This document shows positions 12,497 through 33,085 of a DNA stretch of 64,000 bases, piece by piece (within the stretch, counting starts at the first letter, position 1; every line of letters starts with the position of its first letter). The stretch spans positions 572,000-635,999 of the forward strand of contig NZ_OZ241747.1 in the NCBI RefSeq assembly GCF_965201005.1, in the 5' to 3' direction. Made by a program: the position numbers and the translations under genes. The notes below the pieces were generated by a model that saw nothing but the letters and a program-made list of their open reading frames with translations, had not been told where the DNA came from and searched no databases. Origin of the DNA: Mucilaginibacter sp. Lineage in GTDB: Bacteria > Bacteroidota > Bacteroidia > Sphingobacteriales > Sphingobacteriaceae.

Positions 12497-12499
12497 ATA

Positions 12500-13066: not shown

Positions 13067-13121
13067 AAATATAACGGCCACAAATGCTTTATTAAACACA
13101 TGTGGTTTTGATCTGCAAAAA

Positions 13122-14207
13122 ATGAAAAAAATATTGTTAGCTGTTTTTACCGGTCTTTTTTTGTCGGCCGCTGTAAAAGCTCAGGATTCAACACAATCTT
13201 CCGGCAAATTAACCATAAGTGGCTATGCCGAATTGTATTACGGGTACGATTTTAACCGGCCAAAAGATAATAACCGGCCAAATTTTGTTTACTCGCACAA
13301 CCGCCACAATGAAGTAAACCTAAACCTGGGTTTTATCAAAGCAAATTATGATAACGGCACGGTTAGGGCAAACCTGGCATTAATGGCCGGAACGTATGCC
13401 AATGCTAATTTAGCCGCAGAGCCCGGCGTTTTAAAAAATGTTTTTGAAGCAAATGCAGGTTACAAACTTTCTAAAACAAGCAACCTTTGGGTTGATGCCG
13501 GTATTTTTTCTTCGCACATTGGTTTTGAAAGCGCGATCTCTAAAGATTGCTGGGTTTTAACCCGTAACATCTCTTCAGAAAACACACCATATTATGAATC
13601 CGGAGCTAAATTAAGCTATACCACGGCCAATAATAAACTTACTTTAGTGGGTTTGTATTTGAATGGCTGGCAACGCATTTACCGTCAGGCTGGCAACAGT
13701 CAGCCTGCCGGTGGCTTGCAGGTTTTTTATAAACCAGATGATAAAATAACGCTGAATTATAGTAACTATTTAGGAACAGAAGGTGCCGATTCTATCCGCG
13801 TACGTCGTTTTTATAATAATTTTTATGCTATATTTCAGGTAAACAAAGCTTTTGGCTTAACTGCTGGTTTTGATTACGGCATCCAGCAGCAGGCTAAAGG
13901 CAGCAGCAGTTATAACCATGTAATTTCGCCGGTGGCCATTGCTCGTTATCAGTTTACCGATAAATGGGCAATGGCCGGGCGGGTAGAATATTATGAAGAC
14001 AAAACGGGTATTTTTATTGCAACCAATACACCTAACGGTTTTAAAACCACGGGCTATTCTTTAAACCTGGATTATGCACCGGCCACAAATGCCATTATCC
14101 GTTTAGAAGGAAAAGTTTATAACAGTAAAGATGCCATTTTTACAACGCCTGCCGGAACAGCAAACACAAGCCCTTTGCTTACCGCAAGTTTCGCGGTTTC
14201 ATTTTAA
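13122..14207 (+). CDS. kdp-locus outer-membrane porin (beta-barrel)
   Basis: Signal peptide MKKILLAVFTGLFLSAAVKA, an alternating beta-strand pattern and a C-terminal aromatic residue (..SFAVSF). It sits between kdpC and kdpD, as in other Bacteroidota kdp loci. Confidence 0.7.
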   Translation: MKKILLAVFTGLFLSAAVKAQDSTQSSGKLTISGYAELYYGYDFNRPKDNNRPNFVYSHNRHNEVNLNLGFIKANYDNGTVRANLALMAGTYANANLAAEPGVLKNVFEANAGYKLSKTSNLWVDAGIFSSHIGFESAISKDCWVLTRNISSENTPYYESGAKLSYTTANNKLTLVGLYLNGWQRIYRQAGNSQPAGGLQVFYKPDDKITLNYSNYLGTEGADSIRVRRFYNNFYAIFQVNKAFGLTAGFDYGIQQQAKGSSSYNHVISPVAIARYQFTDKWAMAGRVEYYEDKTGIFIATNTPNGFKTTGYSLNLDYAPATNAIIRLEGKVYNSKDAIFTTPAGTANTSPLLTASFAVSF

Positions 14208-14220
14208 GATAAATGTTATG

Positions 14221-14377
14221 GCCTGTTTAAATGTCGTCTGGTTTTTTGCAAATGCTTCTTTTATCGCCTAAAATTTGGTGTTTTTGTGTGAATTTTCAAT
14301 CAGCAACAAATATAAAAAACCAAATTTACAGGCATAAAAGAAGCATTGCAGTTTCTTCAACAGCAGTTTAAACAGGC
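14221..14377. repeat. full nested palindromic element of the ATGCTTCTTTTA family (157 bp)
   Basis: The outer arms are GCCTGTTTAAA (14221-14231) and TTTAAACAGGC (14367-14377), each 20 nt from the core. The core arms are ATGCTTCTTTTATCGCCTAAAATTTGGTG (from 14252) and CCAAATTTACAGGCATAAAAGAAGCAT (to 14346). The centre is variable. Confidence 0.85.
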
Positions 14378-14390
14378 TTTAAATATACCA

Positions 14391-14419
14391 ATGCTTCTTT
14401 TAGCACCTAAAAACAGTAT
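14391..14419. repeat. compact palindrome (A-type arm + B-type arm) abutting the kdpD-N start codon
   Basis: In ATGCTTCTTTTA-GCACC-TAAAAACAGTAT, the final AT of the element plus G14420 form the ATG start at 14418. Confidence 0.8.
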
Positions 14420-15533
14420 GGATACTTCGGTTAGGGATTTTATTGAACTGGTAAAAAAATCAAGGCGCGGCAAATTTAAAATTTACATCGGCATGAGTGC
14501 CGGTGTGGGCAAAACTTACCGTATGCTGCAGGAGGCGCACACGCTTTTGCGCAACGGCATTGATATCCAGATCGGTTATATCGAAACCCACAACCGCGCC
14601 GAAACACATGCCCTGCTGGCCGGTTTGCCCATGATTGTGAAACGCAAGGTTTTTTACAAAGGCAAAGAACTGGAGGAAATGGATTTGCAGGCCATCCTGA
14701 ACCGGCACCCGGAAGTGGTGATTGTGGACGAGCTGGCGCATACCAACATTGAAGGCAGCAAAAACAGCAAGCGCTGGCAGGATGTACTGGACATTTTGGA
14801 AGCAGGCATCAGTGTGATTTCCGCAGTGAACATTCAGCATCTGGAAAGCATCAACGAAGAAGTGGAAACCATTACCGGGATTGCCATTACCGAACGGATC
14901 CCGGACAAAGTGCTGGAACTGACAGACGAAATTGTTAACATTGACTTAACGGCCGATGAACTGATTGACCGGCTGAAAGAAGGCAAAATTTATGACAAAA
15001 GTAAAGTAAACCTGGCACTGCAAAATTTTTTTCAGGCTGATAAGATTTTGCAATTGCGGGAAATGGCTTTAAAAGAAGTGGCGCACCATTTAGAGCGGAA
15101 AATTTCGATCGAAGTCCCGAAACAAATCAAGCTGCGTTCTGAGAAATTTCTGGCCTGCATTTCTTCCAACTCAGAAACGGCAAAAATCGTGATCCGGAAA
15201 ACCGCGCGGCTGGCCTCATATTATCGCTCGCAGTGGATTGTGCTGTACGTGCAAAGCAGTAACGAAAGTTTAGACAAGATCAAACTTGATAAGCAAAGAT
15301 ATCTCATCAACAACTTAAAATTGGCCACAGAACTGGGCGCAGAACTGCTGAAAATCAAAAGCGATGAAATTATGCAAACCATTATGCAGGTGGCCGAAGA
15401 ACGGGAAATTACAACCATTTGCATTGGCAAACCACATTTAAAATTGTTTCAGGTAATATTAAGGACGGGCGCATTTAACGTGCTGCTTAATAAGCTGGCA
15501 GCTACAGAAACTGATTTAGTTATACTATCATGA
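14418..15533 (+). CDS. kdpD: KdpD N-terminal sensor domain + Usp-like domain protein (split KdpD, no kinase core)
   Basis: Contains GKFKIYIGMSAGVGKTYRML (the KdpD P-loop), VIVDELAHTN and AVNIQHLES, followed by a Usp-like C-terminal half. The start is taken at ATG 14418 rather than the track start at 14346. Confidence 0.85.
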   Translation: MDTSVRDFIELVKKSRRGKFKIYIGMSAGVGKTYRMLQEAHTLLRNGIDIQIGYIETHNRAETHALLAGLPMIVKRKVFYKGKELEEMDLQAILNRHPEVVIVDELAHTNIEGSKNSKRWQDVLDILEAGISVISAVNIQHLESINEEVETITGIAITERIPDKVLELTDEIVNIDLTADELIDRLKEGKIYDKSKVNLALQNFFQADKILQLREMALKEVAHHLERKISIEVPKQIKLRSEKFLACISSNSETAKIVIRKTARLASYYRSQWIVLYVQSSNESLDKIKLDKQRYLINNLKLATELGAELLKIKSDEIMQTIMQVAEEREITTICIGKPHLKLFQVILRTGAFNVLLNKLAATETDLVILS

Positions 15534-17287
15534 AAGTAAAAAATAAACTCCGCTTAGGGTTCGGCTTTTTGTTTATCGTTGTGCTCTTTTTTGGCACCGT
15601 TTCCATCTTCTACATCAACGAAATCTCAAACAGTGCAAAAGTTATTTTAAAAGACAACTACGAAACTTTAAACTTTGCACGGGAAATGCGTATGGTTTTA
15701 GATGAAAATACTTTGCCGCTCAATACCGCTTCGCAGGCATCTTTTGACCGGCAGCTGGCAAAGGAGGAAAATAACATTACCGAAACCGGCGAGCAGGCCG
15801 CAGTAAAAAGTTTGCGTACTGCTTTTACCGTTTTACAAAATACGGCTTTGCCCATGGAACAGCAGCTGCAGGCCGAAAAAAATGCCCGAAGGAATTTGCG
15901 CAAAATTGAAATCCTGAACATGCAGGCAATTGTCCGCAAAAACGATCAGGCACAGGCTTCTGTTAAAAAAGCCACGTTGTTTTTAGGTTTGGCCGGCACC
16001 TTTACGTTTTTGGTGCTGTTCAGTTTCAGCGTTAACTTTCCCGGATTTATCTCCAACCCTTTAAATACTTTGCTGGAAGGCATCAGGGAAATTGGCCGGA
16101 AAAACTACAGCCAGCGTGTTCATTTTGAAAAGCAGGACGAGTTTGCGGAAGTAGGCCGTGCTTTTAATGATATGGCAGCCCGGCTGAACGAATGGGAAAA
16201 CAGCAATTTGTCCAAAATTATGTCGGAAAAGCTGCGGATAGAAACCATTATAGAGCAAATGCACGATGCAATTATCGGGATTAACGAAAAACAGGAAGTG
16301 CTGTTTATTAACTCCGCAGCAAAAATTTTATTAAACCTGAATGAGCAAAGTTTGGCAGGAAAATCTGTTGATGCCATTACAAAAAGTAACGATCTGTTCA
16401 GTTCGATCATCAAAGAGACTAAAGCAGGAAAGCCGTTTAAAATTGTGGAGAATGGGAAAGATGCTTATTTTCAGCTGGAAGTGAGGGAGATTTCGGTCCC
16501 GAATATCGAACCTAACAGGAGTGAAACGATATCTATCTCACATCATTCGGCCGGAAAAGTATATGTTTTGCGCAACATCACAGAGTTTAAAGAAAGGGAC
16601 GAGGCAAAAACCAATTTTATCGCCACTATTTCGCACGAACTGAAAACGCCTATCTCTTCCATGAAATTAAGCCTGAAGCTTTTGGCAGACAGCAGGATTG
16701 GCGGATTGAACCCGGAGCAGGAACAATTGGTGCTTCACCTTAACGAAGATGCAGAACGCCTGCTCAAAATCACGTACGAACTTTTAGACCTTTCGCAGGT
16801 GGAAACTGGTAATATCCAATTAAATTTTGTACCAACGCGGCCAGAACAGATCATAGAATATGCAGTCAAAGCGATCAGTTTTGAAGCTGAACAAAAAAAG
16901 GTAACGATTGAACAATCTGTTGATTTAAAGCTGCCCAATGTGCAGGTTGATGTTGAAAAAACAGCCTGGGTGATGATCAATTTTCTTTCCAATGCTTTAC
17001 GCTACAGCCCGTCGGGGTCTAAAATCATCGTTCAGGTTTCACAGAAAATGCAAATGGTCGAATTTGCTGTAAAAGACTTTGGAAAAGGGATTGACACGCA
17101 GTATTTAGAACGTTTGTTTGACCGCTATTTCCAGGTGCCAACGGACGGGCAAAATAAATCTGGCTCGGGGCTGGGGCTGGCAATTTCTAAAGAGTTTATT
17201 GCCGCACAGGATGGCCGGATTGGTGTAGAAAGTGAAATTGGCGCAGGCAGCCGGTTTTATTTTCAGCTGCCGGTAATGGTTGCTTAA
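15530..17287 (+). CDS. HAMP/PAS sensor histidine kinase (kinase half of the kdp two-component sensor)
   Basis: Has two TM segments, a HAMP region, a PAS-like region, the H-box FIATISHELKTP and the G-box GSGLGLAISKEF. It overlaps the preceding gene by 4 nt. Confidence 0.85.
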   Translation: MKVKNKLRLGFGFLFIVVLFFGTVSIFYINEISNSAKVILKDNYETLNFAREMRMVLDENTLPLNTASQASFDRQLAKEENNITETGEQAAVKSLRTAFTVLQNTALPMEQQLQAEKNARRNLRKIEILNMQAIVRKNDQAQASVKKATLFLGLAGTFTFLVLFSFSVNFPGFISNPLNTLLEGIREIGRKNYSQRVHFEKQDEFAEVGRAFNDMAARLNEWENSNLSKIMSEKLRIETIIEQMHDAIIGINEKQEVLFINSAAKILLNLNEQSLAGKSVDAITKSNDLFSSIIKETKAGKPFKIVENGKDAYFQLEVREISVPNIEPNRSETISISHHSAGKVYVLRNITEFKERDEAKTNFIATISHELKTPISSMKLSLKLLADSRIGGLNPEQEQLVLHLNEDAERLLKITYELLDLSQVETGNIQLNFVPTRPEQIIEYAVKAISFEAEQKKVTIEQSVDLKLPNVQVDVEKTAWVMINFLSNALRYSPSGSKIIVQVSQKMQMVEFAVKDFGKGIDTQYLERLFDRYFQVPTDGQNKSGSGLGLAISKEFIAAQDGRIGVESEIGAGSRFYFQLPVMVA

Positions 17288-18774: not shown

Positions 18775-19001
18775 GATTAAAAATAGTGTTTTTAATTTGA
18801 TGTTGGTTTATACGGAAAATATTGTTGAACAAACCACGATTGTGGTTGTAAAAACGGTGCGGGAAATTGGCCTAAAAGTTACCGAAAAGCAATATATGTA
18901 AATTGTTAACGGTAAACCTTCAAATATTGTATGTGTAAATTTAATTAAGGTTTTTGAATCGAAAGCCAATTGCTGTTTGGGTTTTTTGCGGATTTATTTC
19001 T

Positions 19002-19092
19002 ATGCTTCTTTTATCGCCTAAAAAACTGTGAAGACAGGTTTGCTGCTTTAGATAAATACAAACCACCAAATTTATAGTGCTAAAAGAAGCAT
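19002..19092. repeat. ATGCTTCTTTTA-family palindromic element (L...R, 91 bp)
   Basis: The arms are ATGCTTCTTTTATCGCCTAAAAAACTG... and ...AAACCACCAAATTTATAGTGCTAAAAGAAGCAT. Degenerate outer arms sit at about 18970 and about 19108. Confidence 0.85.
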
Positions 19093-19379
19093 CAGGGTTT
19101 TAAAACAAAGCTAAACCAGCTATATAATGAGTAAAGTTTTTCCTATATATTTTAATTGGGGTTTACAATAAAGAAAACAACAGGATTGGACCTTCTATAA
19201 CCAACCATTCAAAAATCTTAGTTTTCAACTGGTTCTTTTTTTCGCATTTAATGTTCATATCAAGCATGGAACAAAAGTAGTGCCTGCATTTTTCTAAATT
19301 GTCATATCTATATAAGTTTAAACATTTAATCGTTTGATTAACATAAAAATAATAATTTTTTAACAATTACATTCAGCAG

Positions 19380-19395
19380 ATGCTTCTTTTATCAT
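19380..19395. repeat. solo ATGCTTCTTTTA-family arm next to the groEL terminator
   Basis: The sequence is ATGCTTCTTTTATCAT. Confidence 0.75.
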
Positions 19396-19414
19396 ACATT
19401 TTTTGGCAGAAACA

Positions 19415-19447
19415 AAAAAGCTTGTCTGGTTTCCCAAACAAGCTTTC
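19415..19447 (-). terminator. rho-independent terminator of groES-groEL
   Basis: On the minus strand the sequence is AAAGCTTGT-loop-ACAAGCTTTTTTGTTT. This is a 9-bp stem plus T-run, about 40 nt after the groEL stop. Confidence 0.7.
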
Positions 19448-19483
19448 AGTATATATTAAAATTTATAATGGTTGCACAGCTGA

Positions 19484-21124
19484 TTACATCATGCCGCCCA
19501 TACCGCCGCCGCCCATTGGAGGCATACCACCACCACCTTTTTCATCTTCAGGATCATCGGCCAAAACACATTCTGTTGTTAACAACATTGCAGCGATAGA
19601 AGCAGCATTTTCCAAAGCCACACGGCCTACTTTAGTTGGATCGATCACACCGGCACCGATCAAATTTTCGTATTTATCGGTACGTGCATTGTAACCAAAA
19701 TCAGCAGTGCCTTCTTTTACTTTTTGCACCACGATAGAACCTTCAATACCTGCATTTTCGCAGATTTGACGTAATGGCTCTTCAATAGCACGACGAATGA
19801 TCTGGATACCTGTGTTTTCATCTTCGTTAACGCCTTTAACCTCGGTCAAAGATTCTACCGCACGGATGAAAGCTACACCGCCACCGGCAACAATACCTTC
19901 TTCAACCGCAGCACGTGTTGCATGTAAAGCATCATCAACACGGTCTTTTTTCTCTTTCATTTCCACTTCTGTGGCAGCACCAACATACAATACAGCAACA
20001 CCGCCGGACAGTTTGGCTAAACGCTCCTGTAGTTTTTCTTTATCGTAATCAGAAGTAGTAGTTTCAATCTGAGATTTGATCTGGTTAACACGGGCTTTAA
20101 TCTCTTCGGTTTGGCCGGCACCGTTGATTACGGTTGTGTTGTCTTTATCAACAACAATTTTCTCGGCAGTACCTAAATAAGAAAGATCAGCATTTTCCAA
20201 TTTGTAACCTCTTTCTTCAGAAATTACTGTTCCGCCAGTCAAAATTGCAATATCTTCTAACATCGCTTTACGACGATCGCCAAAACCGGGAGCTTTAACA
20301 GCAACCACTTTCAGCGAACCACGGATTTTATTTACAACCAAAGTAGCCAAAGCTTCCCCGTCCAAATCTTCCGCAATAATTAACAATGGTTTACCGGTTT
20401 GTACTTGTTTTTCCAAAACCGGCAACAATTCCTTCATAGAAGAAATCTTTTTGTCGTAAATTAAAATGTAAGGGTTTTCTAATTCCGCTTCCATTTTATC
20501 GGCATTAGTTACAAAGTATGGAGATAAATAACCTCTGTCAAACTGCATACCTTCAACCGTTCTTACTTCAGTTTCGGTGCCTTTTGCTTCTTCAACTGTG
20601 ATAACGCCATCTTTTCCAACTTTTTCCATTGCTTCTGCAATTAGCGAACCGATGATTTCGTCGTTGTTTGCAGAGATAGAAGCAACTTGTTTGATTTTGT
20701 TATTGTCTTCGCCAACTGTTTGAGATTGCTCTTTCAGGTTAGCCACAACAGCCGCAACCGCTTTGTCAATACCACGTTTCAAATCCATCGGGTTTGCACC
20801 GGCGGCAACGTTTTTAATACCAGCGGTTACAATTGCCTGCGCCAAAACGGTAGCCGTAGTTGTTCCGTCACCTGCAATATCAGCAGTTTTGGAGGCCACT
20901 TCTTTCACCATTTGCGCACCCATGTTTTCCAAAGAATCTTTTAATTCGATTTCTTTGGCAACAGTAACACCATCTTTAGTGATAATCGGGGAACCAAATT
21001 TTTTGTCGATAATTACGTTCCTGCCTTTTGGGCCTAAAGTAACTTTAACCGCATTGGCCAAAATATCAACACCGCGTTTTAAAGCGTCGCGCGCTTCTAC
21101 ATTATATTTAACTTGTTTTGCCAT
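19484..21124 (-). CDS. groL: chaperonin GroEL
   Basis: Starts [20 protein letters not shown] and contains [12 protein letters not shown]. The C-terminal tail is [17 protein letters not shown]. Confidence 0.97.
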
Positions 21125-21186
21125 TGTATTGGTTTTTAAGAATGAATAGAATAGTTTAGGCTGAAAATATCAAACCCGGATATGAT

Positions 21187-21462
21187 TTACAGAACTGCGT
21201 AAACGTCTGATTCACGCATGATTAAGTACTCTTTGCCTTCATAAGTAATTTCAGTACCGGCATATTTGCCATATAAAACCTGATCGCCAACTTTAACGGT
21301 CAGCGGCTCGTCAACTTTGCCTTCGCCAACGGCAACGATTGTTCCGCGTTGTGGTTTTTCTTTTGCAGTGTCAGGGATAAAAAGTCCGGATGCCGTTTTT
21401 TCTTCAGCAGCGGCAGCTTCTACTACTACTCTGTCTCCAATCGGTTTGATGTTTAATGACAT
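21187..21462 (-). CDS. groS: co-chaperonin GroES
   Basis: 91 aa with [10 protein letters not shown]...[26 protein letters not shown]. Confidence 0.97.
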
Positions 21463-21575
21463 TTTTGTATTTAGTTTTTGAATGAAAAATAAAATTACTA
21501 CTGCTTATCGTCAAACAGCAACTGTGCCAAAGCCCTGTTTCTGTACATATTGACTTATTGGCTTGCGAAACTTGT

Positions 21576-21583
21576 CAAAATTA
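21576..21583 (-). promoter_or_regulatory. candidate Bacteroidota -7 box (TAATTTTG) for groES-groEL
   Basis: This is the only TAnnTTTG match on the minus strand in the 236-bp region upstream of groES. It implies a 5' UTR of about 105 nt. No clear -33 TTTG was found. Confidence 0.3.
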
Positions 21584-21642
21584 CTTTCCCTTAAATATTT
21601 TAATTGATTTTAGTTGATGGAAATGTGCCATCCTGACAGCCC

Positions 21643-21678
21643 AACAAAAAAGGCTTTCGTATCATCCGAAAGCCTTTT
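21643..21678 (-). terminator. rho-independent terminator of secG
   Basis: 11-bp stem AAAGGCTTTCG / CGAAAGCCTTT with a 7-nt loop. On the minus strand it is followed by TTTTTTG. Confidence 0.8.
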
Positions 21679-21682
21679 ATTA

Positions 21683-21700
21683 ATGCTGTTTTTACCACCT
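21683..21700. repeat. solo B-type arm overlapping the secG stop codon
   Basis: ATGCTGTTTTTACCACCT; the secG TAG is the complement of 21699-21701. Confidence 0.8.
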
Positions 21701-22043
21701 ATTTTTTAGGCAGCGGCTGTTGTACCGGAGGCAAATTCAGCGGTGCGCTCACCGGAGCGGTTGGTTTTGAAGCTTTGTCAATCTGTTCCTGGTTTTGCAC
21801 ACGGTTTGCAGATGATGGACCGTTTTTAGAAACCACATTTACAGCCAGCGAAAGCACCATCAGCGCAATAGCCAAAAACCAGGTCCCTTTTTCCAGAAAA
21901 TCACCGGTTTTTTGTACGCCCATCATTTGAGACGAACTCGAAAAATTAGAATTCAGGCCGCCGCCTTTCGGGTTCTGGATCAGCACGATCAAACCAAGCA
22001 GCACGCAGATAATCACAATCAAAACAACAAGCACTAAATACAT
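21699..22043 (-). CDS. secG: preprotein translocase subunit SecG
   Basis: 114 aa with two TM helices and LIVLIQNPKGGGL. Confidence 0.85.
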   Translation of the reverse strand: MYLVLVVLIVIICVLLGLIVLIQNPKGGGLNSNFSSSSQMMGVQKTGDFLEKGTWFLAIALMVLSLAVNVVSKNGPSSANRVQNQEQIDKASKPTAPVSAPLNLPPVQQPLPKK

Positions 22044-22049
22044 TTTATA

Positions 22050-23825
22050 TCAGTTTATTTTTTTCTCTATTTCTGTTAGTTGGGCTGCAAAGTAAACGCT
22101 TTTTTCCGGAAATTTCAACAGCAGCTTTTTATAAGTATCTAAGGCTTTGTGGTAAAGCATTTGGTCCAAGTAAACTTTTGCCAGCGTTTCCGTCACCAAA
22201 ATATCTGCATCTTCCGAACTCTTTTTAGCCTTGTTTTCTGTGTCCAACTTATCCATACTTGGCGGGTGGATGTGCGGTTCTTCAATAATAAAACGTTCAA
22301 TCAGCTGCTTCTCCTTCTTTTTAACTGGCAATTCTTCTATCGGCGGCAACACGTTTTCGGGCACTTTCAGCGGTGCTTTGGTATGAAAAATACTTTCTAT
22401 ATATTGCTGGTGCAGCTCCGGGCCAACGCTTAAATCAGTGTTGTTTTGTACATTTTTAGTGTAAGGCTGATAGTTCCCATCATGTTCTTTGCGCGTTCTG
22501 TCCAGCCACCACATAAACGTGTACGGCATTTTATCATCATGATATTTGGAAACCGTATCTGCTTCATTTTCAGTTTGATAATCCGTTTTTATAGGTTCAG
22601 CCAAAGCTTTTTCTAATGGATCATCACCTTTTTCTATCAATTGTTTTTCAGTTTCAGGCGTTTGGTTTTGCCCGAATTTCTGGTTAAAAGAAAAATAATC
22701 GATCGAAGCAATGTTGCTCAGCATTGCTTTTTCCGCCTCATCGCGGGCATTTAAAGGTGTTTCTTCCGAAGTAATTTCGGGTGTAACTGCAACTTCCGGT
22801 GCTAATGATTCAGGTTCGGATCCGGGAACAATTTGGGGCGATGCTTCTTTTACCACCTCAAATTTGATGTCCTCAATCGCCATGATTTCCTCAAAAACCT
22901 CTTCGTCAATTTCCTGGCCGGCGGGTTTTTGATTAAAGTTTTCTTCGAATGCTAAAATCGTTGGTTCAGGGAAAACAAGTTTTTCATCGTCCTCATTTAC
23001 AAATGTTTGGCTTATGTCTTCTGCCCGGAAATCATTTTCGGCAGCCATTGCTTCCTCCAAATTTTCACCTGTAAAAGAAGCATCAACGTTTTCTGCGGAA
23101 GGGATATCTTCTGTAAAAACCGCTTCCTCGTCCTCAATTTCCGCAGGTTTTGGTTCGATAAAAGCCGCGTCGGTAGTTTCCTGCGGATCAGTTTCTTCCG
23201 ATTTTTCCTGACTATCGGTTCCGGTCAAATTTCCCTCAATAAAAACAGCATCGTTTTCTGCGGAAGGAGCAGCCCCGGCCACATCTGAATCCGCAGTAAC
23301 CACTTCCAGTTCCAAATCAATAAACGCGGCATTGTTGATTTCGTCAGCAGGTATTTCATCCGAAAAGTCCGCTTCCGTTTCAGGTTTTGGGTTGATAAAA
23401 ACAGTATTGGTTTCTTCTTTCGCAGCAACTTCCACCGGATAATTTGCTGCAAAAGCTGCCGGTGCGTCCACCAAATTTTCCTCTGTAAAAACAGTATCAG
23501 TTGTTGTTTTATGATCGGTTTTACTTCCATCAAAACCAACAAAACGATCTGGTTTTGGCGCAACCAGCAATTCCGGCCGGTGGATCAGCCGGAACAAAAC
23601 TTCCCGGTTTGCCGCATAAACTGCCGCCGAACGAAGTGCTTTTTCTGCAATTTCGGCATCTGGCTTTTGCACTGCTTTGGCCAGCAACATCCGGAAAATA
23701 CCGCAGGCCGGATAATTTTGCACCAACGCTTCCAACTGCTGCCGGTGCATTGCGTTTGCCGCCGCCGGATTGGCCAATAGTTGCTGCAAAAATTCGGGGT
23801 TTAACCCGTTTTGTATCTGATCCAC
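22050..23825 (-). CDS. acidic repeat protein with a C-terminal TPR-like helix pair
   Basis: 591 aa. The central Asp/Glu-rich region carries the repeated peptide D-[AT]-[AVS]-F-[TI]-x-[EG]-N-L, encoded by the genome-wide repeat motif. The C-terminus is ...ETLAKVYLDQMLYHKALDTYKKLLLKFPEKSVYFAAQL. Confidence 0.7.
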   Translation of the reverse strand: MDQIQNGLNPEFLQQLLANPAAANAMHRQQLEALVQNYPACGIFRMLLAKAVQKPDAEIAEKALRSAAVYAANREVLFRLIHRPELLVAPKPDRFVGFDGSKTDHKTTTDTVFTEENLVDAPAAFAANYPVEVAAKEETNTVFINPKPETEADFSDEIPADEINNAAFIDLELEVVTADSDVAGAAPSAENDAVFIEGNLTGTDSQEKSEETDPQETTDAAFIEPKPAEIEDEEAVFTEDIPSAENVDASFTGENLEEAMAAENDFRAEDISQTFVNEDDEKLVFPEPTILAFEENFNQKPAGQEIDEEVFEEIMAIEDIKFEVVKEASPQIVPGSEPESLAPEVAVTPEITSEETPLNARDEAEKAMLSNIASIDYFSFNQKFGQNQTPETEKQLIEKGDDPLEKALAEPIKTDYQTENEADTVSKYHDDKMPYTFMWWLDRTRKEHDGNYQPYTKNVQNNTDLSVGPELHQQYIESIFHTKAPLKVPENVLPPIEELPVKKKEKQLIERFIIEEPHIHPPSMDKLDTENKAKKSSEDADILVTETLAKVYLDQMLYHKALDTYKKLLLKFPEKSVYFAAQLTEIEKKIN

Positions 23826-23845
23826 GGTTTGAAACTACGATTTGC

Positions 23846-24373
23846 TTACCAATTGGCAAAAGCCTTGTTAAAAATATCTTCAGTCAGTTGCGTATTGATG
23901 GCTGCAATCAGCCCTTGTTCGCGCGTGCCAATATCGCCCTGATAATCCTGATAACGCGAAAACGATTGCTCAAAATTTTGTTTTGGGTCTAAATTATTGG
24001 TGTATTTCACGTTCACCGTAATGGTTAAACGGTTGGTGTTGGATATTGGTGCGATGCTGCTGTTGGCCGCCGGCAAAACCGTTGGCGCAATGGTGTAGCC
24101 CGTAATGCGGCCTTCCAAAGTGCAATCTGCATCGCCCCGAACCGTGCTTAAACGGGTTTGCGTGCGGATACGGTCCTGCAAAGCGGTGGTAAAAGTCTGG
24201 CTTAAATTGTTGATCACCAGCGGTGCCACGTTTTCAAAAATCGGAATGTTGATGGTTTTTAACGCGCCAACCGAACCGCCGTTTAATTTGTAGGAGCAAG
24301 CCTGAAAGCAAAAAAATATCGGCAGTAAAAAAAACAAGCCCGATTTTTTGCCGATAAAAGAAGTATTGGCCAT
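23846..24373 (-). CDS. LptE-like lipoprotein
   Basis: Has a lipoprotein signal (LLPIFFCFQAC) at about 175 aa. The assignment rests on its position between the sigma-54 activator and the TPR/secG genes. The N-terminus MANTSFIGKK is encoded by a repeat-family arm. Confidence 0.45.
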   Translation of the reverse strand: MANTSFIGKKSGLFFLLPIFFCFQACSYKLNGGSVGALKTINIPIFENVAPLVINNLSQTFTTALQDRIRTQTRLSTVRGDADCTLEGRITGYTIAPTVLPAANSSIAPISNTNRLTITVNVKYTNNLDPKQNFEQSFSRYQDYQGDIGTREQGLIAAINTQLTEDIFNKAFANW

Positions 24374-24383
24374 TAATGTATGT

Positions 24384-25640
24384 TTATAAATTCAGTTCTT
24401 TAATTTTTCGGTACAAAGTGCGCTCGGAAATGCCCAGTTCCTGAGCGGCAAATTTGCGTTTGCCTTTGTGTTTTTTCAACGCTTTTTTTATCAGGTCTGA
24501 TTCTTTTTCCAGCAATGAAAGTGATTCTTCCACTTCTTCAGCTTCGTGTGCAATGCTAAAATCTTTGTTGTTTTGCGTTGGTTGCTGGATAGTTAATTTG
24601 GGTTCCTGCGGATGATTGTTCTGGTGATGAAACTGATGGTCGCCTTCAATCTCAATATCGCGGTAAAGCTGGTTCAAAACCTGCGGATTGCCGGTATAAT
24701 TTGCCGTAACGCCGCCATTTTCAATAATATCGACCACTAATTTTTTAAGGTCCGTCACGTCGCGCTTCATGTCAAAAAGCACTTTGTACAAAATATCACG
24801 TTCCGAAAAATCGTCTTTTTTCTGTTGATTGATGCGCATCGGCAAATTGCTGCCGCTGTTTTCCTGCGGGATGTATTGCAGCAAACTTTGCGCAGAAATG
24901 GTATGATCGCGCTCTAAAACGGCTAATTGCTCGGCAATATTTTTCAGCTGACGAACATTTCCCGGCCAGCTGTAATTCACCAGCATTTGCTGCGCTTCTT
25001 CATTCATTTGTATGGGCGGAGAACGATATTTCGCCGTAAAATCTGCCGTAAATTTTCTAAAAAGCAGATAAATATCTTCTTTCCGGTCGCGCAACGGCGG
25101 GATGCGCAACGGAACGGTATTCAGCCGATAATACAAATCTTCCCGGAAACGGCCTGATTTTACCGCATCATAAACATCCACGTTGGTGGCCGCAATTACA
25201 CGTACATTGGTTTTTTCTACTTTGGATGAACCAACTTTAATATATTGCCCGGATTCCAAAACCCGCAGCAAACGCGCCTGAGTCCCCAAAGGCATTTCGG
25301 CAATTTCATCCAGAAAAATCGTTCCGCCGTTTACCGTTTCAAAATAACCTTTACGCTCGCCAATGGCACCCGTATAAGCACCTTTTTCATGTCCAAAAAG
25401 TTCCGAATCAATGGTTCCTTCGGGGATGGCACCGCAATTTACCGCGATAAACGGACCATGTTTCCTGGGGCTCATCTGGTGGATGATGTGCGAAAAAACC
25501 TCTTTACCGCTGCCGCTTTCGCCTGTAATCAGCACCGAAATATCTGTTGGTGCCACCTGGTTGGCAATATCTATCGCCCGGTTAAGCAAAGGCGAATTAC
25601 CAATAATCCCGAAGCGCTGTTTAATTTCCTGAATCTCCAT
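24384..25640 (-). CDS. sigma-54 interaction-domain transcriptional activator (no receiver domain)
   Basis: Walker A GESGSGKE, a GAYTGA loop, and a C-terminal Fis-type HTH (AAQELGISERTLYRKI). Confidence 0.85.
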   Translation of the reverse strand: MEIQEIKQRFGIIGNSPLLNRAIDIANQVAPTDISVLITGESGSGKEVFSHIIHQMSPRKHGPFIAVNCGAIPEGTIDSELFGHEKGAYTGAIGERKGYFETVNGGTIFLDEIAEMPLGTQARLLRVLESGQYIKVGSSKVEKTNVRVIAATNVDVYDAVKSGRFREDLYYRLNTVPLRIPPLRDRKEDIYLLFRKFTADFTAKYRSPPIQMNEEAQQMLVNYSWPGNVRQLKNIAEQLAVLERDHTISAQSLLQYIPQENSGSNLPMRINQQKKDDFSERDILYKVLFDMKRDVTDLKKLVVDIIENGGVTANYTGNPQVLNQLYRDIEIEGDHQFHHQNNHPQEPKLTIQQPTQNNKDFSIAHEAEEVEESLSLLEKESDLIKKALKKHKGKRKFAAQELGISERTLYRKIKELNL

Positions 25641-25647
25641 ACTGTTT

Positions 25648-27066
25648 TTAGCCTACAATTTTACCAATTAAGGTTGCGGTTGTACATTTTTCGATCAAAA
25701 CATTGGCATAATCGCCCGGCTGGTAGCGTTTATCTGCCGGAAAAACCACCGTTGCATTCAAATCATTCCGTCCGCTATAATCTAAAGCTGATTTTTTAGA
25801 ACGTTTCTCGATCAAAACCTGCTGCACCTGGCCGATTTGTTCTAACAATCTGAAATGCGAATGCTGTTGTTGTTTAGCCACAATTTCGCGCAACCGGCGG
25901 CTTTTGGTTTCCTCCGGAATATCGTCCGCATAACGCTTTGCCGCCAGCGTTCCCGGCCGTTCCGAATACATAAACATGTAGGCGAAATCGTACTGCACAT
26001 AATCCATCATGCTCAGCGTTTCCTGGTGTTCTTCTTCCGTTTCCGAACAAAAACCGGTAATCACATCGGTAGAAATGGCACAACCGGGAAGAATGCGACG
26101 AATGGCATCAATCCGGTTCATGTACCAGGCACGGTCGTAAGTACGGTTCATCAGTTCCAAAATCCGGCTGTTGCCCGATTGTACCGGCAAATGGATGTAT
26201 TTGCAGATGTTGTCGTACTTTTTCATCGTGTAAAGCACTTCATCCGTAATATCTTTTGGGTGAGATGTTGAAAAACGTACGCGCAACTTTGGGTTGATTA
26301 ACGCCACAAATTCCAGCAACCCGGCGAAATTTAGGATGATGCCGTCTTCATTCGTCCATTTGTACGAATCCACATTTTGCCCAAGCAGCGTAACTTCTTT
26401 ATAACCGGCATTAAATAAATCCGCACATTCTTTGACGATAGAAAAAGCATCACGGCTACGTTCGCGGCCGCGTGTAAACGGAACCACGCAAAATGAACAC
26501 ATGTTGTCGCAGCCGCGCATAATCGACACAAAAGCGTTGATGCCGTTGCTGTTTAAACGCACCGGACTAATATCAGCGTAAGTTTCTTCGCGGGAAAGCA
26601 GCACGTTTACCGCTTTTTGTCCGCTGTCCACCTGTTCAATCAAATTTGGCAGGTCGCGGTAAGCATCCGGGCCAACCACTACGTCAACCAATTTTTCTTC
26701 TTCCAAAAACTTGGCTTTTAAACGTTCGGCCATGCAGCCCAAAACGCCAACCACCATTCCCGGGTTCCGCTGTTTGGAAACTTTAAATTCTTTCAAACGA
26801 TTACGTACACGTTGTTCCGCATTTTCGCGGATTGAGCAAGTGTTGATAAAAACCACGTCCGCTTCCTTAAAATCCGAAGTGGTTTCAAAACCCTGATCCG
26901 CCAGAATGGAAGCAACAATCTCACTGTCCGAAAAATTCATCGCGCAGCCATAACTTTCAATATACAGTTTGCGGCCATTGTTTTTCAATATCGTTTTATC
27001 CAGCACCAACGCTTCGCCTTGCCGGCTTTCATCGTGTTTGCTGGTTGGAAAATCCAAATTCATCAT
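25648..27066 (-). CDS. miaB: tRNA (N6-isopentenyl adenosine(37)-C2)-methylthiotransferase MiaB
   Basis: Contains [10 protein letters not shown], the radical-SAM motif [13 protein letters not shown] and a TRAM-like C-terminus. Confidence 0.9.
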
Positions 27067-27268: not shown

Positions 27269-29104
27269 ATGAAATTTAGAAGGTTACGCCGCAGATTTAA
27301 AAAATTACGCCGTAAAAAATGGTTCAAAAGGCTGGTTTTGCCTTTGTTTGTGCTGCTGTTTTTTACGCTGATAATTGCGCTGGCCATCAATATTTACTTC
27401 TCGCCGGTTTTGTCCAATCAGCTAAAAAAAACGGTTTTTAAGTGGGGAAACGGTTTGTATCAGATTGATTTTGAGAGAAGTAGCCTGCATGTGTTGGCCG
27501 GCCGCATTGTGATCGATCACCTCAGCCTGAAACCCGACACGGCTGTTTTTGACCGGCTAAAAAAAGCAGGCAAAGCACCAAATAATCTGTACACGCTTTC
27601 GGTTGACAGGATAGTTTTTAAACATATCCATCCGTTTAAACTGTATTTTAAAAAGGAGTTTGAGGTAGATGAAATTTCCGTCAGCAAACCAAATGTGCAG
27701 GTTTTTTACCAAGATCTGCACCAGCCGGAACGCATCAAAAACGATCCGAAAACGATTTACCAGGAAATTGCAGGCACGCTGAAATCGATCCATGTTGGCC
27801 GGATTTTGGCGGATAACATCAGTTTGCGTTATCAGGAAAAAACCGCTGGCGGGACACGCATCCGGCATCTGCAGAAAATCAACCTGAAAGCAAGCGATTT
27901 TCTGATTGATCAAAGCAGCCAGTTGGATCAAAAACGTTTTAATTTTTGCCGGGACATTACCGCTTCCATCAGCGATTATGCACTGCAGACTGAAAACCAT
28001 CAGCATGAATTTACGGCCAAATCAGTCACGTTTTCCAGTTCAAAAGCAAGCGTGAAACTAATTGATGCTGTTTTTATGCCGGTAAAAACAGCATCGCCAA
28101 CGCCAGATCAGCGGCGGCGCGAACTGCAGATGGAAAGTGATTCGGTGTGTATCAATCACTTTGATTATCAGCAATTTATTTCAAACAGAAAAATAAAAGC
28201 TTCGGATGTAACCGTTTTTGGCCGAAAAATAAGCTTCTTTTATAACCGAAATTTGCCCCGCCCTGAAAAACCTGCGGGTGCGGCCAAAACCGGTTTGTAC
28301 AAACTATTGAAAAGCGTGCATCGGGACATCAACATCCAAACCATCAATTTTAAAAACGTGGAAGTGGTTTATGCAGAGATCAGTGCCAAAACCAAGCTGC
28401 TCGGCGTGATAACTTTTGAAAACTTGAACGGTTCCATCAGCAATTTCCTTACCGGAAACGATCCGCTGCAGGCCAACCGCAACATAACGGCCAGTTTAAC
28501 GGCCAACTTGATGGGTTACGGCAAACTGAACGCCAATTTGCAGTTTGATGCGGCCAGCCCGGCCAATATTTTATATTATAAAGGCAGTTTGGGCGTGATG
28601 AACTTAGTGAACCTGAACAACGCCACCAAGCCGCTTGGCCTGATCCAGTTTACCAATGGGATTGTGACCAGTTTGGATTTTGATATGCAGGCCGATGCAC
28701 AAAAAGCCATCGGAAAAGTTACCTTTTTGTATAATGATCTGAATGTAATTTTGCTTAAGCAGGACGAGAAAAATGGCTTGCACCGCATGTCGTTTATGTC
28801 GATTTTGGCCAATGCTTTTGTGCTGATCCGCGATAACCCACGCCAGAATGCTGCCGCAAGGGTTGCAGATGTGGTTTATTTGCGGCCGGAAAACACATCT
28901 TATCTGGGTTTGATCTGGCGTTCGGTTTATGCCGGGATCAAAGAATCGATTGGTTTATCCGCGGAAGTTGAGCAAAAACTGCGGCAAAAAGTGGTTGATT
29001 ACAAGCAGAACAAAGAAATACGCAATCAAAAAAAAGCCGGCCGGCAGGAGCGGAGGCGGTTGCGCCGCTTAAAAAGAAACCTAAAAGAAGCACAGGATGA
29101 TTAA
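27269..29104 (+). CDS. membrane-anchored hypothetical protein (basic N-terminus + single TM; possibly AsmA/DUF748-like)
   Basis: Starts MKFRRLRRRFKKLRRKKWFKRLVLPLFVLLFFTLIIALAINIY and has a basic C-terminal tail. The ORF-track start at 27218 is TTG, so ATG 27269 is preferred. The family call is weak. Confidence 0.6.
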   Translation: MKFRRLRRRFKKLRRKKWFKRLVLPLFVLLFFTLIIALAINIYFSPVLSNQLKKTVFKWGNGLYQIDFERSSLHVLAGRIVIDHLSLKPDTAVFDRLKKAGKAPNNLYTLSVDRIVFKHIHPFKLYFKKEFEVDEISVSKPNVQVFYQDLHQPERIKNDPKTIYQEIAGTLKSIHVGRILADNISLRYQEKTAGGTRIRHLQKINLKASDFLIDQSSQLDQKRFNFCRDITASISDYALQTENHQHEFTAKSVTFSSSKASVKLIDAVFMPVKTASPTPDQRRRELQMESDSVCINHFDYQQFISNRKIKASDVTVFGRKISFFYNRNLPRPEKPAGAAKTGLYKLLKSVHRDINIQTINFKNVEVVYAEISAKTKLLGVITFENLNGSISNFLTGNDPLQANRNITASLTANLMGYGKLNANLQFDAASPANILYYKGSLGVMNLVNLNNATKPLGLIQFTNGIVTSLDFDMQADAQKAIGKVTFLYNDLNVILLKQDEKNGLHRMSFMSILANAFVLIRDNPRQNAAARVADVVYLRPENTSYLGLIWRSVYAGIKESIGLSAEVEQKLRQKVVDYKQNKEIRNQKKAGRQERRRLRRLKRNLKEAQDD

Positions 29105-32964: not shown

Positions 32965-32993
32965 ACTATATCAGCTTGTTCAAATTAGTTTCT

Positions 32994-33085
32994 ATGCTTC
33001 TTTTATCACCTAAAAAACAAAATTTATTATCTTTTGAGATAATCATTAACCTGAAAGAACAAAAATACTGGCATAAAAGAAGCAT
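32994..33085. repeat. ATGCTTCTTTTA-family palindromic element (L...R, 92 bp)
   Basis: The arms are ATGCTTCTTTTATCACCTAAAAAAC... and ...ACTGGCATAAAAGAAGCAT. An outer-arm-like CTTAAACAGGC sits 21 nt downstream (33107-33117). Confidence 0.85.

What the first reader, a model, noticed from the sequence alone, without database searches (positions are those of the whole stretch)
22841..23499. An acidic linker protein is built from 7-8 in-frame copies of the repeat arm
Within CDS 22050..23825 (minus), arms in the same orientation occur at 23057-23084, about 23100-23125, about 23160-23180, 23225-23252, about 23320-23340, 23389-23410 and 23469-23499. One opposite-orientation arm lies at 22841-22869. 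They encode DASFTGENL, EAVFTEDIP, DAAFIEPKP, DAVFIEGNL, NAAFIDLE, NTVFINPKP and DTVFTEENL, plus KFEVVKEAS for the opposite-orientation arm. The match covers the extended arm as well as the core. For example, GATGCTTCTTTTACAGGTGAAAATTTGG compares with the consensus GATGCTTCTTTTATCACCTAAAATTTGG. Either the disordered region grew by repeated capture or duplication of the element, or this peptide repeat is the evolutionary source of the element.
Basis: seen in the sequence. Interest (0 to 1): 0.65.

Follow-up and report, generated by a model that had tools for sequence, protein, structure and literature searches.

The report
Genome-wide DNA word translated as protein repeats
The repeated D-A-S-F-T peptides in this protein's floppy acidic linker are in-frame copies of a 12-letter DNA word that saturates the chromosome of this bacterium and its relatives, so the DNA word, not the peptide, is what evolution conserves.

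Summary
Gene 22050..23825(-) encodes a 591-aa protein. Its predicted-disordered acidic linker carries seven same-strand units [D/N/E][A/T][S/V/A]F[T/I] and one opposite-strand unit (VVKEAS) at the stated coordinates.

Five of the eight contain an exact member of a word family, AT[G/A]CT[TC/GT]TTTTA plus an A/T-rich tail. This family occurs 72 times in the 64-kb window (about 0.03 expected). The density is 5.4/kb between genes and 0.49/kb inside genes, where one reading frame dominates.

- In 80 orthologous loci, all 11 genomes with the word in flanking DNA carry 2-5 such peptide units. All 69 genomes without the word carry no such repeats (five have a single chance match).
- All 26 D/N-A-S-F units in 12 orthologues use GCT TCT TTT, while conserved Ala and Ser elsewhere in the gene use mixed codons.
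- At the opposite-strand site the peptide changes (VKEAS, VKTAS, VKTVL) while the DNA stays within the allowed variants.
- In PurD, KdpB and LipB the word sits in gap-free alignment with distant homologues, so it arose by substitution.
- Copy number changes by tandem duplication of 78-87-bp coding units.

The peptide is therefore a tolerated passenger and is not the source of the element. What maintains the word is unproven. Its genomic signature is closest to DNA uptake sequences.

The parts
22050..23825 (-). CDS of a 591-aa protein: helical N-terminal domain, long acidic linker, TPR-like helical C-terminus. It lies between lptE-like (23846-24373) and secG-like (21699-22043) genes.
   Evidence: ORF list. 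88 homologues with E<=1e-44 and intact frames. Conserved N- and C-terminal blocks. No Pfam or NCBIfam family beyond a weak TPR_14 hit. LptE assignment for the neighbour; the secG label rests on the ORF's sequence and my own knowledge, not on a family search.
23058..23549 (-). Predicted-disordered acidic linker (aa 93-256) that holds all same-strand units.
   Evidence: AlphaFold2: pLDDT <50 and no secondary structure over residues 93-256. About 27% D+E.
23472..23498 (-). Unit 1, DTVFTEENL. Exact core variant ATACTGTTTTTA at 23486-23497, plus tail GAAAATTTGG.
   Evidence: orthologous copies in L001 and L002.
23382..23408 (-). Unit 2, NTVFINPKP. Exact core variant ATACTGTTTTTA at 23396-23407.
   Evidence: The near-identical protein P0002 has DAVFINPKP here, which by codon inference (not read from DNA) would be the variant ATGCTGTTTTTA.
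23307..23333 (-). Unit 3, NAAFIDLEL. A decayed copy (AATGCCGCGTTTA, 9/13 to the core).
   Evidence: L002 carries a similar unit, NAAFIGHEL, with ATGCTGCTTTTA; positional orthology was not checked.
23226..23252 (-). Unit 4, DAVFIEGNL. Exact core variant ATGCTGTTTTTA at 23240-23251, plus tail GGAAATTTGA.
23145..23171 (-). Unit 5, DAAFIEPKP. A decayed copy (GACGCGGCTTTTA, 10/13).
   Evidence: Aligns with exact copies DASFIDPKP/DASFTDEKL in orthologues.
23100..23126 (-). Unit 6, EAVFTEDIP. The 'EAVF' sub-unit (GAAGCGGTTTTTA) is not a member of the genome-wide word family. It is the partner of a DASF unit within the 78-87-bp tandem unit.
23058..23084 (-). Unit 7, DASFTGENL. Exact core ATGCTTCTTTTA at 23072-23083, plus tail GAAAATTTGG (22/28 to the consensus arm).
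   Evidence: A word-family member or a one-mismatch copy at the aligned position in six relatives (L001-L005, L008).
22840..22867 (+). Opposite-orientation arm (25/28 to consensus, exact core at 22841-22852), read on the coding strand as V-V-K-E-A-S.
   Evidence: A word-family member at the aligned position in 9 of 11 relatives (L004 two mismatches, L008 degenerate), while the peptide changes among VKEAS, VKEVS, VKTAS and VKTV[LS].
23349..23375 (-). Possible further degenerate EAVF-type unit, EADFSDEIP (aa 151-159). This is an inference from the ~29-aa periodicity.
   Evidence: Read directly from the translation and compared with the 87-bp unit of L003.

Best explanation
**What it is.** This bacterium belongs to the Sphingobacteriaceae, in a lineage next to Mucilaginibacter that is seen in lichen samples. 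It and at least 11 sequenced relatives carry about one copy per kb of a DNA word family. The word is AT[G/A]CT[TC/GT]TTTTA, followed by about 5 variable bases and an A/T-rich tail (TAAAATTTGG).

- Between genes the word often occurs as inverted pairs.
- Inside genes it is tolerated mainly in one frame, xAT GCT TCT TTT A, read as [D/N]-A-S-F-[T/I].
- On the other strand it reads V-K-E-A-S or K-N-S-I.

The 'repeats' in the disordered acidic linker are such in-frame copies. In this frame the consensus tail TAA would be a stop codon. Coding copies carry GAA-AAT-TTG (E-N-L) or ATA-AAA (I-K) instead.

**Shown.**
- The constraint is on the DNA word and not on the peptide.
- In conserved genes the word arises in place by substitution.
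- Sites are kept at orthologous positions and switch only among four allowed variants.
- Copy number in this linker changes by tandem duplication or deletion of 78-87-bp (26-29-aa) coding units.
- The linker existed before the word did.

**Inferred.** The peptide units are tolerated passengers in a permissive region and have no role of their own.

**Inferred, about 0.35-0.4.** The word is recognised by a sequence-specific DNA-binding protein. It is then spread and maintained by biased conversion, as with the DNA uptake sequences of Neisseriaceae and Pasteurellaceae. The alternative is direct selection for an unknown chromosomal function.
For: **1. Abundance.**
- 42 exact ATGCTTCTTTTA copies and 72 copies of the four variants in 64 kb, against about 0.03 expected.
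- 258 copies in 263 kb from 12 genomes of the lineage, against 8 in 1.23 Mb from 69 other Mucilaginibacter genomes.

**2. Co-occurrence.**
- 11 of 11 loci with the word in DNA outside the gene have 2-5 peptide units in the orthologue.
- 69 of 69 loci without the word have no such repeats (five have one isolated regex match).
- Among protein hits, P0001-P0037 carry 2-9 units (only P0029 has none) and P0038-P0088 carry none, apart from four single chance matches.

**3. Codons.**
- All 26 [D/N]ASF units use GCT TCT TTT.
- Conserved Ala columns in the same gene use GCT 22% of the time, and conserved Ser columns use TCT 17%.

**4. DNA conserved while the peptide changes.**
- At site 22841 the DNA reads GTA AAA GAA GCA TCG, GTA AAA ACA GCA TCG or GTA AAA ACA GTA TTG. 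The peptides are VKEAS, VKTAS and VKTVL.
- The same site is unrelated sequence in genomes without the word.
- At aa 140 the close strain has DAV for NTV.

**5. Same word, same frame, in unrelated proteins.**
- DASFTGIK occurs in LipB (6296) and in a GNAT acetyltransferase (60251).
- 14 of 20 same-strand CDS copies lie in this frame.

**6. In-place origin.** Word-encoded residues in PurD (three sites), KdpB and the LipB C-terminus align without gaps to E. coli, Yersinia and Thermus homologues.

**7. Positional conservation.** Many sites are conserved across the relatives, always within the four variants. The single-step intermediates TT and GC are rare: 5 and 5, against 156 TC and 102 GT.

**8. 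Duplication.** 87 bp x2.3 at 90% in L003, 78 bp x2.9 at 87% in L004, and a 26-aa extra unit in P0002.

**9. Permissive site.** The linker has pLDDT <50. Its length and acidity are similar in orthologues without the word.

**10. Precedent.** Uptake sequences accumulate in coding regions. They favour particular frames, poorly conserved positions and their encoded tripeptides. The share lying in ORFs is 65%, 49% and 34.5% in three species (PMC2817400).
Against: - All word-bearing genomes form one lineage (GroEL 95.8-97.5% identical). The co-occurrence is therefore one evolutionary event, not 11 independent ones.
- Three of the eight units have decayed at the DNA level, so maintenance is not absolute.
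- The EAVF sub-unit (GAA GCG GTT TTT) is also codon-conserved across species, yet it is not a genome-wide word. Some peptide-level constraint or concerted evolution inside the array cannot be excluded.
- The density in this linker (7.6/kb) is far above the CDS background. It needs the duplication component as well.
- Nothing here shows what protein reads the word, whether these bacteria take up DNA, or that the linker peptide has no function.
- Translation of the region is inferred from frame conservation only. No bacterial RNA reads were found.
Confidence: 0.8

Rival explanations
1. Selfish-element capture. Copies of a small mobile palindromic element (MITE, REPIN or RPE-like) inserted repeatedly and in frame into the linker and lengthened it. 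Rickettsia palindromic elements do this in Rickettsia genes.
For: - Intergenic copies form ~95-165-nt composite palindromes with shared flanking blocks. These blocks are GCCTGTTTAAAT ... ATTTAAACAGGC. The composites fold strongly (z = -7.7).
- One composite (18962-19132) is present in the window but absent downstream of groEL in ten relatives. The composites may therefore move.
- LipB's DASFTGIK lies in a ~19-aa segment absent from Thermus LipB.
- Repeat number correlates with linker length within the lineage (r = 0.56).
- RPEs are a precedent for in-frame insertion (PMC10969869).
Against: - Only the ~27-nt arm is found in the gene, never a whole composite element or its flanking blocks.
- The same-strand units are direct repeats, not inverted ones.
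- In PurD, KdpB and the LipB C-terminus the word occupies gap-free positions.
- 44% of the copies are in CDS, with a strong frame bias.
- Linker length is similar in genomes without the word.
- The length changes actually observed are tandem duplications of coding units.
- No transposase or RAYT gene was found among the 50 of 56 window ORFs scanned against Pfam.
Confidence: 0.1
2. Functional peptide motif. D-A-S-F-[T/I]-x-E-[N/K]-L is a short linear motif, for example a partner-binding site repeated for avidity, and is selected at the protein level. The resemblance to the DNA word is secondary, or the peptide-coding repeat seeded the genomic element.
For: - Two or more units are kept in every orthologue of the lineage, and at least two are positionally conserved.
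- The EAVF[V/T]EDIP sub-unit is conserved although it is not a genomic word.
Against: - There is no synonymous variation at GCT TCT TTT in 26 units, although conserved Ala and Ser codons elsewhere in the gene vary.
- Peptides change freely as long as the DNA stays within the four variants.
- The same DNA occurs in both orientations in unrelated enzymes and is 11 times denser between genes.
- Orthologues in 69 other genomes have no such motif, although the protein is otherwise conserved.
Confidence: 0.07
3. Chance or compositional artefact. The units are low-complexity similarities in an acidic, A/T-rich stretch and have no relation to the genomic word.
For: Units aa 165, 219 and 234 match the 28-mer consensus at only 11-16/28. 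That level is common by chance.
Against: - Five exact 12-mers in 660 bp give P about 2e-5 even against the elevated CDS background.
- The 28-mer search found 0 matches in shuffles.
- The orthologous sites are conserved in relatives.
Confidence: 0.01

Closest known systems
DNA uptake sequences in coding regions (USS of Pasteurellaceae, DUS of Neisseriaceae) and the peptides they encode (Findlay & Redfield 2009, PMC2817400)
   Same: - A short asymmetric core of 9-12 nt with a weaker A/T-rich flank, at about 1 per kb on both strands.
- Shared by a group of related species and absent from more distant ones.
- Enriched between genes, often as inverted pairs near gene ends.
- Also inside genes, created in place, in preferred frames and at poorly conserved positions, which raises the frequency of the encoded peptides.
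   Different: - No uptake bias, receptor or competence has been shown for this lineage. To my knowledge, uptake sequences are established only in those two proteobacterial families.
- The core here has two co-equal states, TC and GT, with rare intermediates.
- 5-9 copies are packed into one linker and amplified by tandem duplication. I do not know of this for USS or DUS.
REP / REPIN / BIME elements mobilised by RAYT transposases (Di Nocera et al. 2013, PMC3733652)
   Same: - High-copy short sequences occurring singly or as inverted doublets of about 100 nt between genes.
- Two arm types alternate, as in BIMEs.
- The composite elements fold as long hairpins.
   Different: - REPs are extragenic. 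Here 44% of copies are inside genes and were made by substitution.
- No GTAG or CGTC end tag is present.
- Single arms do not fold better than shuffled sequence.
- The exact word is conserved at orthologous sites across species.
- No RAYT gene was seen in the window.
Rickettsia palindromic elements and other MITEs inserted in frame in genes (reviewed in PMC10969869)
   Same: A repeated non-coding element ends up translated as extra peptide inside otherwise normal proteins.
   Different: - RPEs are whole ~150-bp insertions that add 30-50 residues.
- Here only a ~27-nt arm is present, conserved enzymes show no indel at the site, and growth of the linker is by tandem duplication.
HIP1 (GCGATCGC) of cyanobacteria (own knowledge)
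   Same: A hyper-abundant short word in genes and spacers, kept at orthologous positions, with an unknown maintaining force.
   Different: HIP1 is an 8-nt perfect palindrome linked to a methyltransferase site. The present word is a 12-nt asymmetric core with a tail.

Membership tests
DNA uptake sequence (USS/DUS-like) | A short asymmetric word, hugely over-represented (~1/kb), on both strands without strand bias | tested here: met
   42 exact copies (24 on +, 18 on -) and 72 copies with variants in 64 kb; it is the top 12-mer. 0.98/kb over 263 kb from 12 genomes.
DNA uptake sequence (USS/DUS-like) | Copies inside genes are made in place, are frame-biased, and lie at poorly conserved positions | tested here: met
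   14 of 20 same-strand copies lie in one frame. Gap-free in PurD, KdpB and LipB at variable residues. Hot spot in a disordered linker.
DNA uptake sequence (USS/DUS-like) | Shared by related species and absent from more distant relatives | tested here: met
   11 genomes with the word against 69 without it. GroEL identity is 95.8-97.5% among word-bearing genomes and <=95.4% for the others.
DNA uptake sequence (USS/DUS-like) | Competent cells preferentially take up DNA carrying the word, and a receptor protein exists | not testable with these tools
   This needs uptake or transformation assays. No literature was found on competence in Mucilaginibacter.
DNA uptake sequence (USS/DUS-like) | Competence machinery (comEC, comEA, dprA, a pilus or pseudopilus) is encoded in the genome | not tested
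   Only the 64-kb window and +-10-kb loci were accessible. None of these genes lies in the window.
REP/REPIN | Extragenic location | tested here: not met
   32 of 72 copies lie inside ORFs of real genes.
REP/REPIN | Each unit is an imperfect palindrome that folds; a GTAG or CGTC tag is present at one end | tested here: not met
   Of four single arms folded, two are indistinguishable from shuffles (z = +0.95, +0.86) and two only marginally better (z = -2.2, -1.8). No GTAG or CGTC adjoins the arms in alignment A2. Tag criterion taken from PMC3733652.
REP/REPIN | Inverted doublets of ~100 nt form hairpins | tested here: met
   At least 9 composite elements were found. Element 14212-14386 folds at -38.3 kcal/mol, z = -7.7.
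REP/REPIN | A cognate RAYT (Y1 transposase) gene is present | tested here: inconclusive
   None among the 50 of 56 window ORFs scanned against Pfam.
MITE / RPE-type in-frame insertion | The whole element is inserted, giving an indel relative to homologues, with target-site duplication | tested here: not met
   No indel at 5 of 6 sites examined in conserved enzymes. Only arms, not whole elements, are present in the linker. Target-site duplications were not examined.
Protein tandem repeat / short linear motif under peptide selection | The peptide is conserved while codons drift | tested here: not met
   The codons are invariant (26 of 26 GCT TCT TTT) while the peptides vary within the DNA-allowed set.

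The most novel reading that the evidence does not exclude
A lichen-associated lineage of Sphingobacteriaceae, which includes the cultured Mucilaginibacter arboris, carries a previously undescribed uptake-sequence-like DNA word, AT[G/A]CT[TC/GT]TTTTA-N5-TAAAATTT. The word would be spread by biased DNA uptake or gene conversion. To my knowledge this would be the first such system outside the Proteobacteria. The drive would be strong enough to write a recurrent peptide (D-A-S-F-T, or V-K-E-A-S on the other strand) into many proteins and to build most of a protein linker.
Probability: 0.3. Interest if true: 0.85.

Novelty: new variant of a known kind. Interest (0 to 1): 0.62.

Why it matters
This is a very clear case of a DNA-level force shaping a protein sequence. 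The same nine codons recur in one linker. The amino acids at these sites follow the allowed DNA variants and show no sign of being fixed by protein function.

For annotation, it warns against reading 'DASF' repeats as a functional protein motif. It also explains why assemblies of these genomes break at these sites.

For biology, the underlying word is not found in the searchable literature. Its genomic signature has so far been tied to natural transformation. A cultured member of the lineage exists, so the question of whether Bacteroidota have uptake sequences can be tested directly.

Tried and rejected
- **Rfam, whole window:** no family. The arms are not a known RNA.
- **Pfam and NCBIfam on the protein:** only a sub-threshold TPR_14 hit. 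The protein's function remains unknown.
- **Tandem Repeats Finder on the window gene:** no array. The window's units are too diverged, and arrays appear only in orthologues.
- **Promoter reading of the tail** (Bacteroidetes -7 box TAnnTTTG, own knowledge): rejected. Copies face both ways, often sit after stop codons or inside genes, and have no consistent distance to start codons.
- **Terminator reading:** downstream of groEL a canonical GC-hairpin plus T-run terminator is present and separate, and the word follows it.
- **Hairpin reading of single arms:** not better than shuffles. In close pairs the arms are mostly of the same variant, but n = 9 and the sites are not independent. This is left open.
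- **IHF-site resemblance (WATCAANNNNTTR):** checked by eye; the spacing does not fit.
- **RNA evidence for expression:** three host polyA RNA-seq runs gave zero reads on 19000-25000.
- **Literature search for the 12-mer:** only unrelated primer hits.
- **Search for a RAYT, transposase or competence gene in the window:** none found; it contains ordinary housekeeping genes.
Full report
**1. What is at the coordinates**

The minus-strand ORF 22050..23825 encodes a 591-aa protein. It starts at GTG, and the MDQ start is conserved in orthologues. The neighbouring genes are groEL, groES and a secG-like gene downstream. An LptE-family lipoprotein, a sigma-54 activator and miaB lie upstream.

The protein matches no curated family apart from a sub-threshold TPR hit at its C-terminus. 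It has 88 clear homologues (E<=1e-44) in Sphingobacteriaceae, mostly Mucilaginibacter. AlphaFold2 gives a helical N-terminal domain and a confident helical C-terminus. Residues 93-256 have no structure, with pLDDT <50. That segment is about 27% Asp+Glu.

The opposite-strand arm at 22840-22867 is read as VVKEAS and lies in a second low-confidence segment.

**2. The DNA word is real and extraordinary**

- Its 12-nt core ATGCTTCTTTTA occurs 42 times exactly (24 on +, 18 on -). It is the commonest 12-mer in the window.
- Three sister variants (ATGCTGTTTTTA, ATACTGTTTTTA, ATACTTCTTTTA) bring the count to 72.
- A position matrix shows the invariant core, about 5 weakly conserved bases (TCACC), and then AAAATTTGG.
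- Over 263 kb from 12 genomes of the lineage, positions 6-7 of the core are TC 156 times and GT 102 times. The single-step intermediates TT and GC each occur only 5 times.
- In 1.23 Mb from 69 other Mucilaginibacter genomes the four variants occur 8 times in total.
- The density is 5.4/kb between genes and 0.49/kb inside genes.

**3. How the units in the gene relate to the word**

- Units at aa 248, 110, 140 and 192, and the opposite arm, each contain an exact member of the family.
- Units at aa 165, 219 and 234 match only 9-10 of 13 core bases.
- Unit aa 219 aligns with exact copies in orthologues. L002 carries a unit similar to aa 165 with one mismatch to the variant ATGCTGTTTTTA, but its positional orthology was not checked. 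Unit aa 219, and probably aa 165, are therefore decayed copies.
- EAVF (aa 234) is a distinct sub-unit.
- Five exact cores in 660 bp is about 15 times the CDS background (P about 2e-5).
- In this frame the consensus tail would read TAA. The coding copies have GAA AAT TTG (E-N-L) or, in other proteins and orthologues, ATA AAA (I-K). This explains the peptide consensus.

**4.

One scan of the species-representative genome collection returned 80 orthologous loci with up to 10 kb of flank on each side.

- Eleven loci (L001-L010, L053) carry the word in DNA outside the gene, at 0.15-0.5 exact cores per kb plus variants. L001 has variants only. Every one of their orthologues has 2-5 units.
- The other 69 loci have zero exact cores, and none of their orthologues has repeats of this kind (five show one isolated match to the search pattern).
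- The protein search agrees. Hits P0001-P0037 have 2-9 units (only P0029 has none), and P0038-P0088 have none apart from four single chance matches.

The refutation condition is not met. The caveat is that the word-bearing genomes form one lineage. Their GroEL is 95.8-97.5% identical to the window's, against <=95.4% for the rest. This is therefore one evolutionary origin.

**5. DNA or peptide?**

Three results point to DNA.

- (a) All 26 [D/N]ASF units in 12 orthologues are written GCT TCT TTT A. Conserved Ala columns elsewhere in the same gene use four codons (GCT 22%), and conserved Ser columns use six (TCT 17%).
- (b) At the opposite-arm site the word persists in 9 of 11 relatives, but as different allowed variants. 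The peptide follows: VKEAS, VKEVS, VKTAS, VKTVL. Glu to Thr needs the TC-to-GT double change. Genomes without the word have unrelated sequence at this position.
- (c) The same DNA in the same frame gives DASFTGIK in LipB and in a GNAT acetyltransferase. Opposite-strand copies give KEA or KNSI in PurD, serine dehydratase, a class-II (Asp/Lys/Asn-type) tRNA synthetase, KdpB and others.

The peptide is therefore a by-product. The idea that the peptide repeat seeded the element is rejected.

**6. How copies arise**

- In PurD (three sites), KdpB and the LipB C-terminus the word-encoded residues align without gaps to homologues of solved structure from E. coli, Yersinia and Thermus. The word was written by substitution and not inserted. 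The one exception is the LipB DASFTGIK, which lies in a ~19-residue segment absent from the Thermus enzyme.
- Many sites around the gene are positionally conserved in the relatives and toggle only among the four variants. Intermediates are rare. This toggling suggests templated replacement rather than stepwise mutation, which is an inference.
- Within the linker, copy number changes by tandem duplication. L003 has 87 bp x2.3 at 90% identity and L004 has 78 bp x2.9 at 87%, each unit holding one DASF and one EAVF.
- A 93%-identical protein from another sample has one extra 26-aa unit.
- The window's own spacing (30, 25, 27, 27, then 15+14 aa) is the decayed trace of the same ~29-aa unit.
- Linkers of orthologues without the word are about as long (median 170 vs 184 aa) and as acidic. 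The linker therefore pre-dates the word. Within the lineage, length rises with unit number (r = 0.56).

**7. What the word is for**

This is not shown here.

*Facts.*
- Intergenic copies often form inverted pairs inside ~165-nt composite palindromes. These have a second conserved block, GCCTGTTTAAAT, and fold strongly.
- One composite (18962-19132) is absent from ten relatives.
- Single arms do not fold.
- Downstream of groEL a normal terminator is followed by a word palindrome. Its right arm is kept in all ten genomes while the left arm decays in four.
- No RAYT, transposase or competence gene lies in the window.
- There is no Rfam match.
- The 12-mer does not appear in the searchable literature except as chance primer sequence.

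*Comparison.* The signature consists of:
- an asymmetric 12-mer plus A/T tail at about 1/kb on both strands;
- sharing across a lineage;
- enrichment between genes with inverted pairs;
- in-place, frame-biased copies in genes.

This matches DNA uptake sequences best (PMC2817400). The word fails two defining features of REPs, which are extragenic location and a GTAG or CGTC tag (PMC3733652). RPE or MITE-type insertion (PMC10969869) fits the composite elements, but it does not fit the copies in genes.

I put about 0.35-0.4 on an uptake- or conversion-driven word. The remainder is split between an unknown chromosomal binding-site function and a REP-like system with unusual spill-over into genes.

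**8. Verdict**

The phenomenon is a new variant of a known kind, namely uptake-sequence-type words being translated. It is unusual because one linker is largely built from such copies. The underlying word appears undescribed and can be tested in a cultured relative.

Noticed in passing
window 14212-14386, 36116-36290, 40979-41141, 40833-41004, 44386-44540, 32954-33125, 62243-62415, 18962-19132, 35905-36080: These are ~165-nt composite palindromic intergenic elements. The layout is an outer block GCCTGTTTAAAT, about 15 nt, arm A (ATGCTTCTTTTATCACCTAAAATTTGGTGG), a spacer, arm B (reverse complement of ATGCTTCTTTTATGCCTGTAAATTT), about 15 nt, then ATTTAAACAGGC. Copies are only 63-77% alike, but the 12-mer is invariant. 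Element 14212-14386 folds at z = -7.7.
   Followed up: partly
window 18962-19132 vs L002-L010, L053: The composite element downstream of groEL is present in the window but absent from the same spacer in ten relatives. The single word nearer groEL (19380) is conserved in all of them. The composites may therefore be mobile or recently formed.
   Followed up: partly
window 19380-19484 (and relatives): A canonical groEL terminator (AAAGCCTGTCTGG..CCAGACAGGCTTTTTTGTTT, with compensatory changes between species) is followed at once by a word palindrome, GATRCTGTTTTTA-N6-TAAAARMAGYATC. The left arm has decayed in the window.
   Followed up: partly
whole window and L001-L010, L053: The core has two co-equal states at positions 6-7 (TC 156, GT 102), and the single-step intermediates are nearly absent (TT 5, GC 5). 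Position 3 is G 175 or A 83. Orthologous sites switch between these states. No explanation accounts for the two peaks.
   Followed up: partly
window 25638-25650 and 24355-24373: The word overlaps the start codon of the sigma-54 activator gene (CAT-ACTGTTTTTA on +). It also encodes residues 3-7 (NTSFI) of the LptE-family lipoprotein signal peptide. Both sites are conserved across the relatives covered by the alignment (10 and 11 genomes; L004 has a one-base gap at the first).
   Followed up: no
window 28065-28094 and 60295-60324: Perfect 13-bp-stem palindromes made of two words lie inside coding sequences, in an unknown 611-aa protein and in a GNAT acetyltransferase. As RNA they fold at -18.8 and -17.1 kcal/mol.
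   Followed up: partly
window 36470-44361: A cluster of seven family-2 glycosyltransferase genes, broken by two unannotated ORFs at 38538-39783. Several are recent paralogues (300-nt stretches 63-88% identical; repeat families D1, D9, D11, D17). An epimerase gene lies beside them. The cluster is likely a polysaccharide locus.
   Followed up: no
window 8680-17287: A kdpA-kdpB-kdpC operon is followed by an OmpL-like porin gene, a KdpD-sensor-domain gene and a separate histidine kinase gene.
   Followed up: no
L001, L002, L004 (public records): Three metagenome-assembled genomes titled 'Janthinobacterium lividum' carry this Sphingobacteriaceae locus, with 50-67% identical orthologues and GroEL 95.8-97.5% identical where measured (L002, L004). 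The species label on those records looks wrong.
   Followed up: no
window 19000-25000 in public run X1: The run's assembly-graph contigs break or join at word positions (19022/19068, 19379, 21707, 22840, 24345). The word is therefore frequent enough to fragment short-read assemblies. Runs that hold the gene include lichen metagenomes.
   Followed up: no
window 23100-23126 and orthologues: The EAVF[V/T]EDIP sub-unit is written GAA GCG GTT TTT in the window and in several relatives (L001, L003, L004), although GAAGCGGTTTTT occurs only once in the window. The reason for this codon conservation is unexplained.
   Followed up: partly
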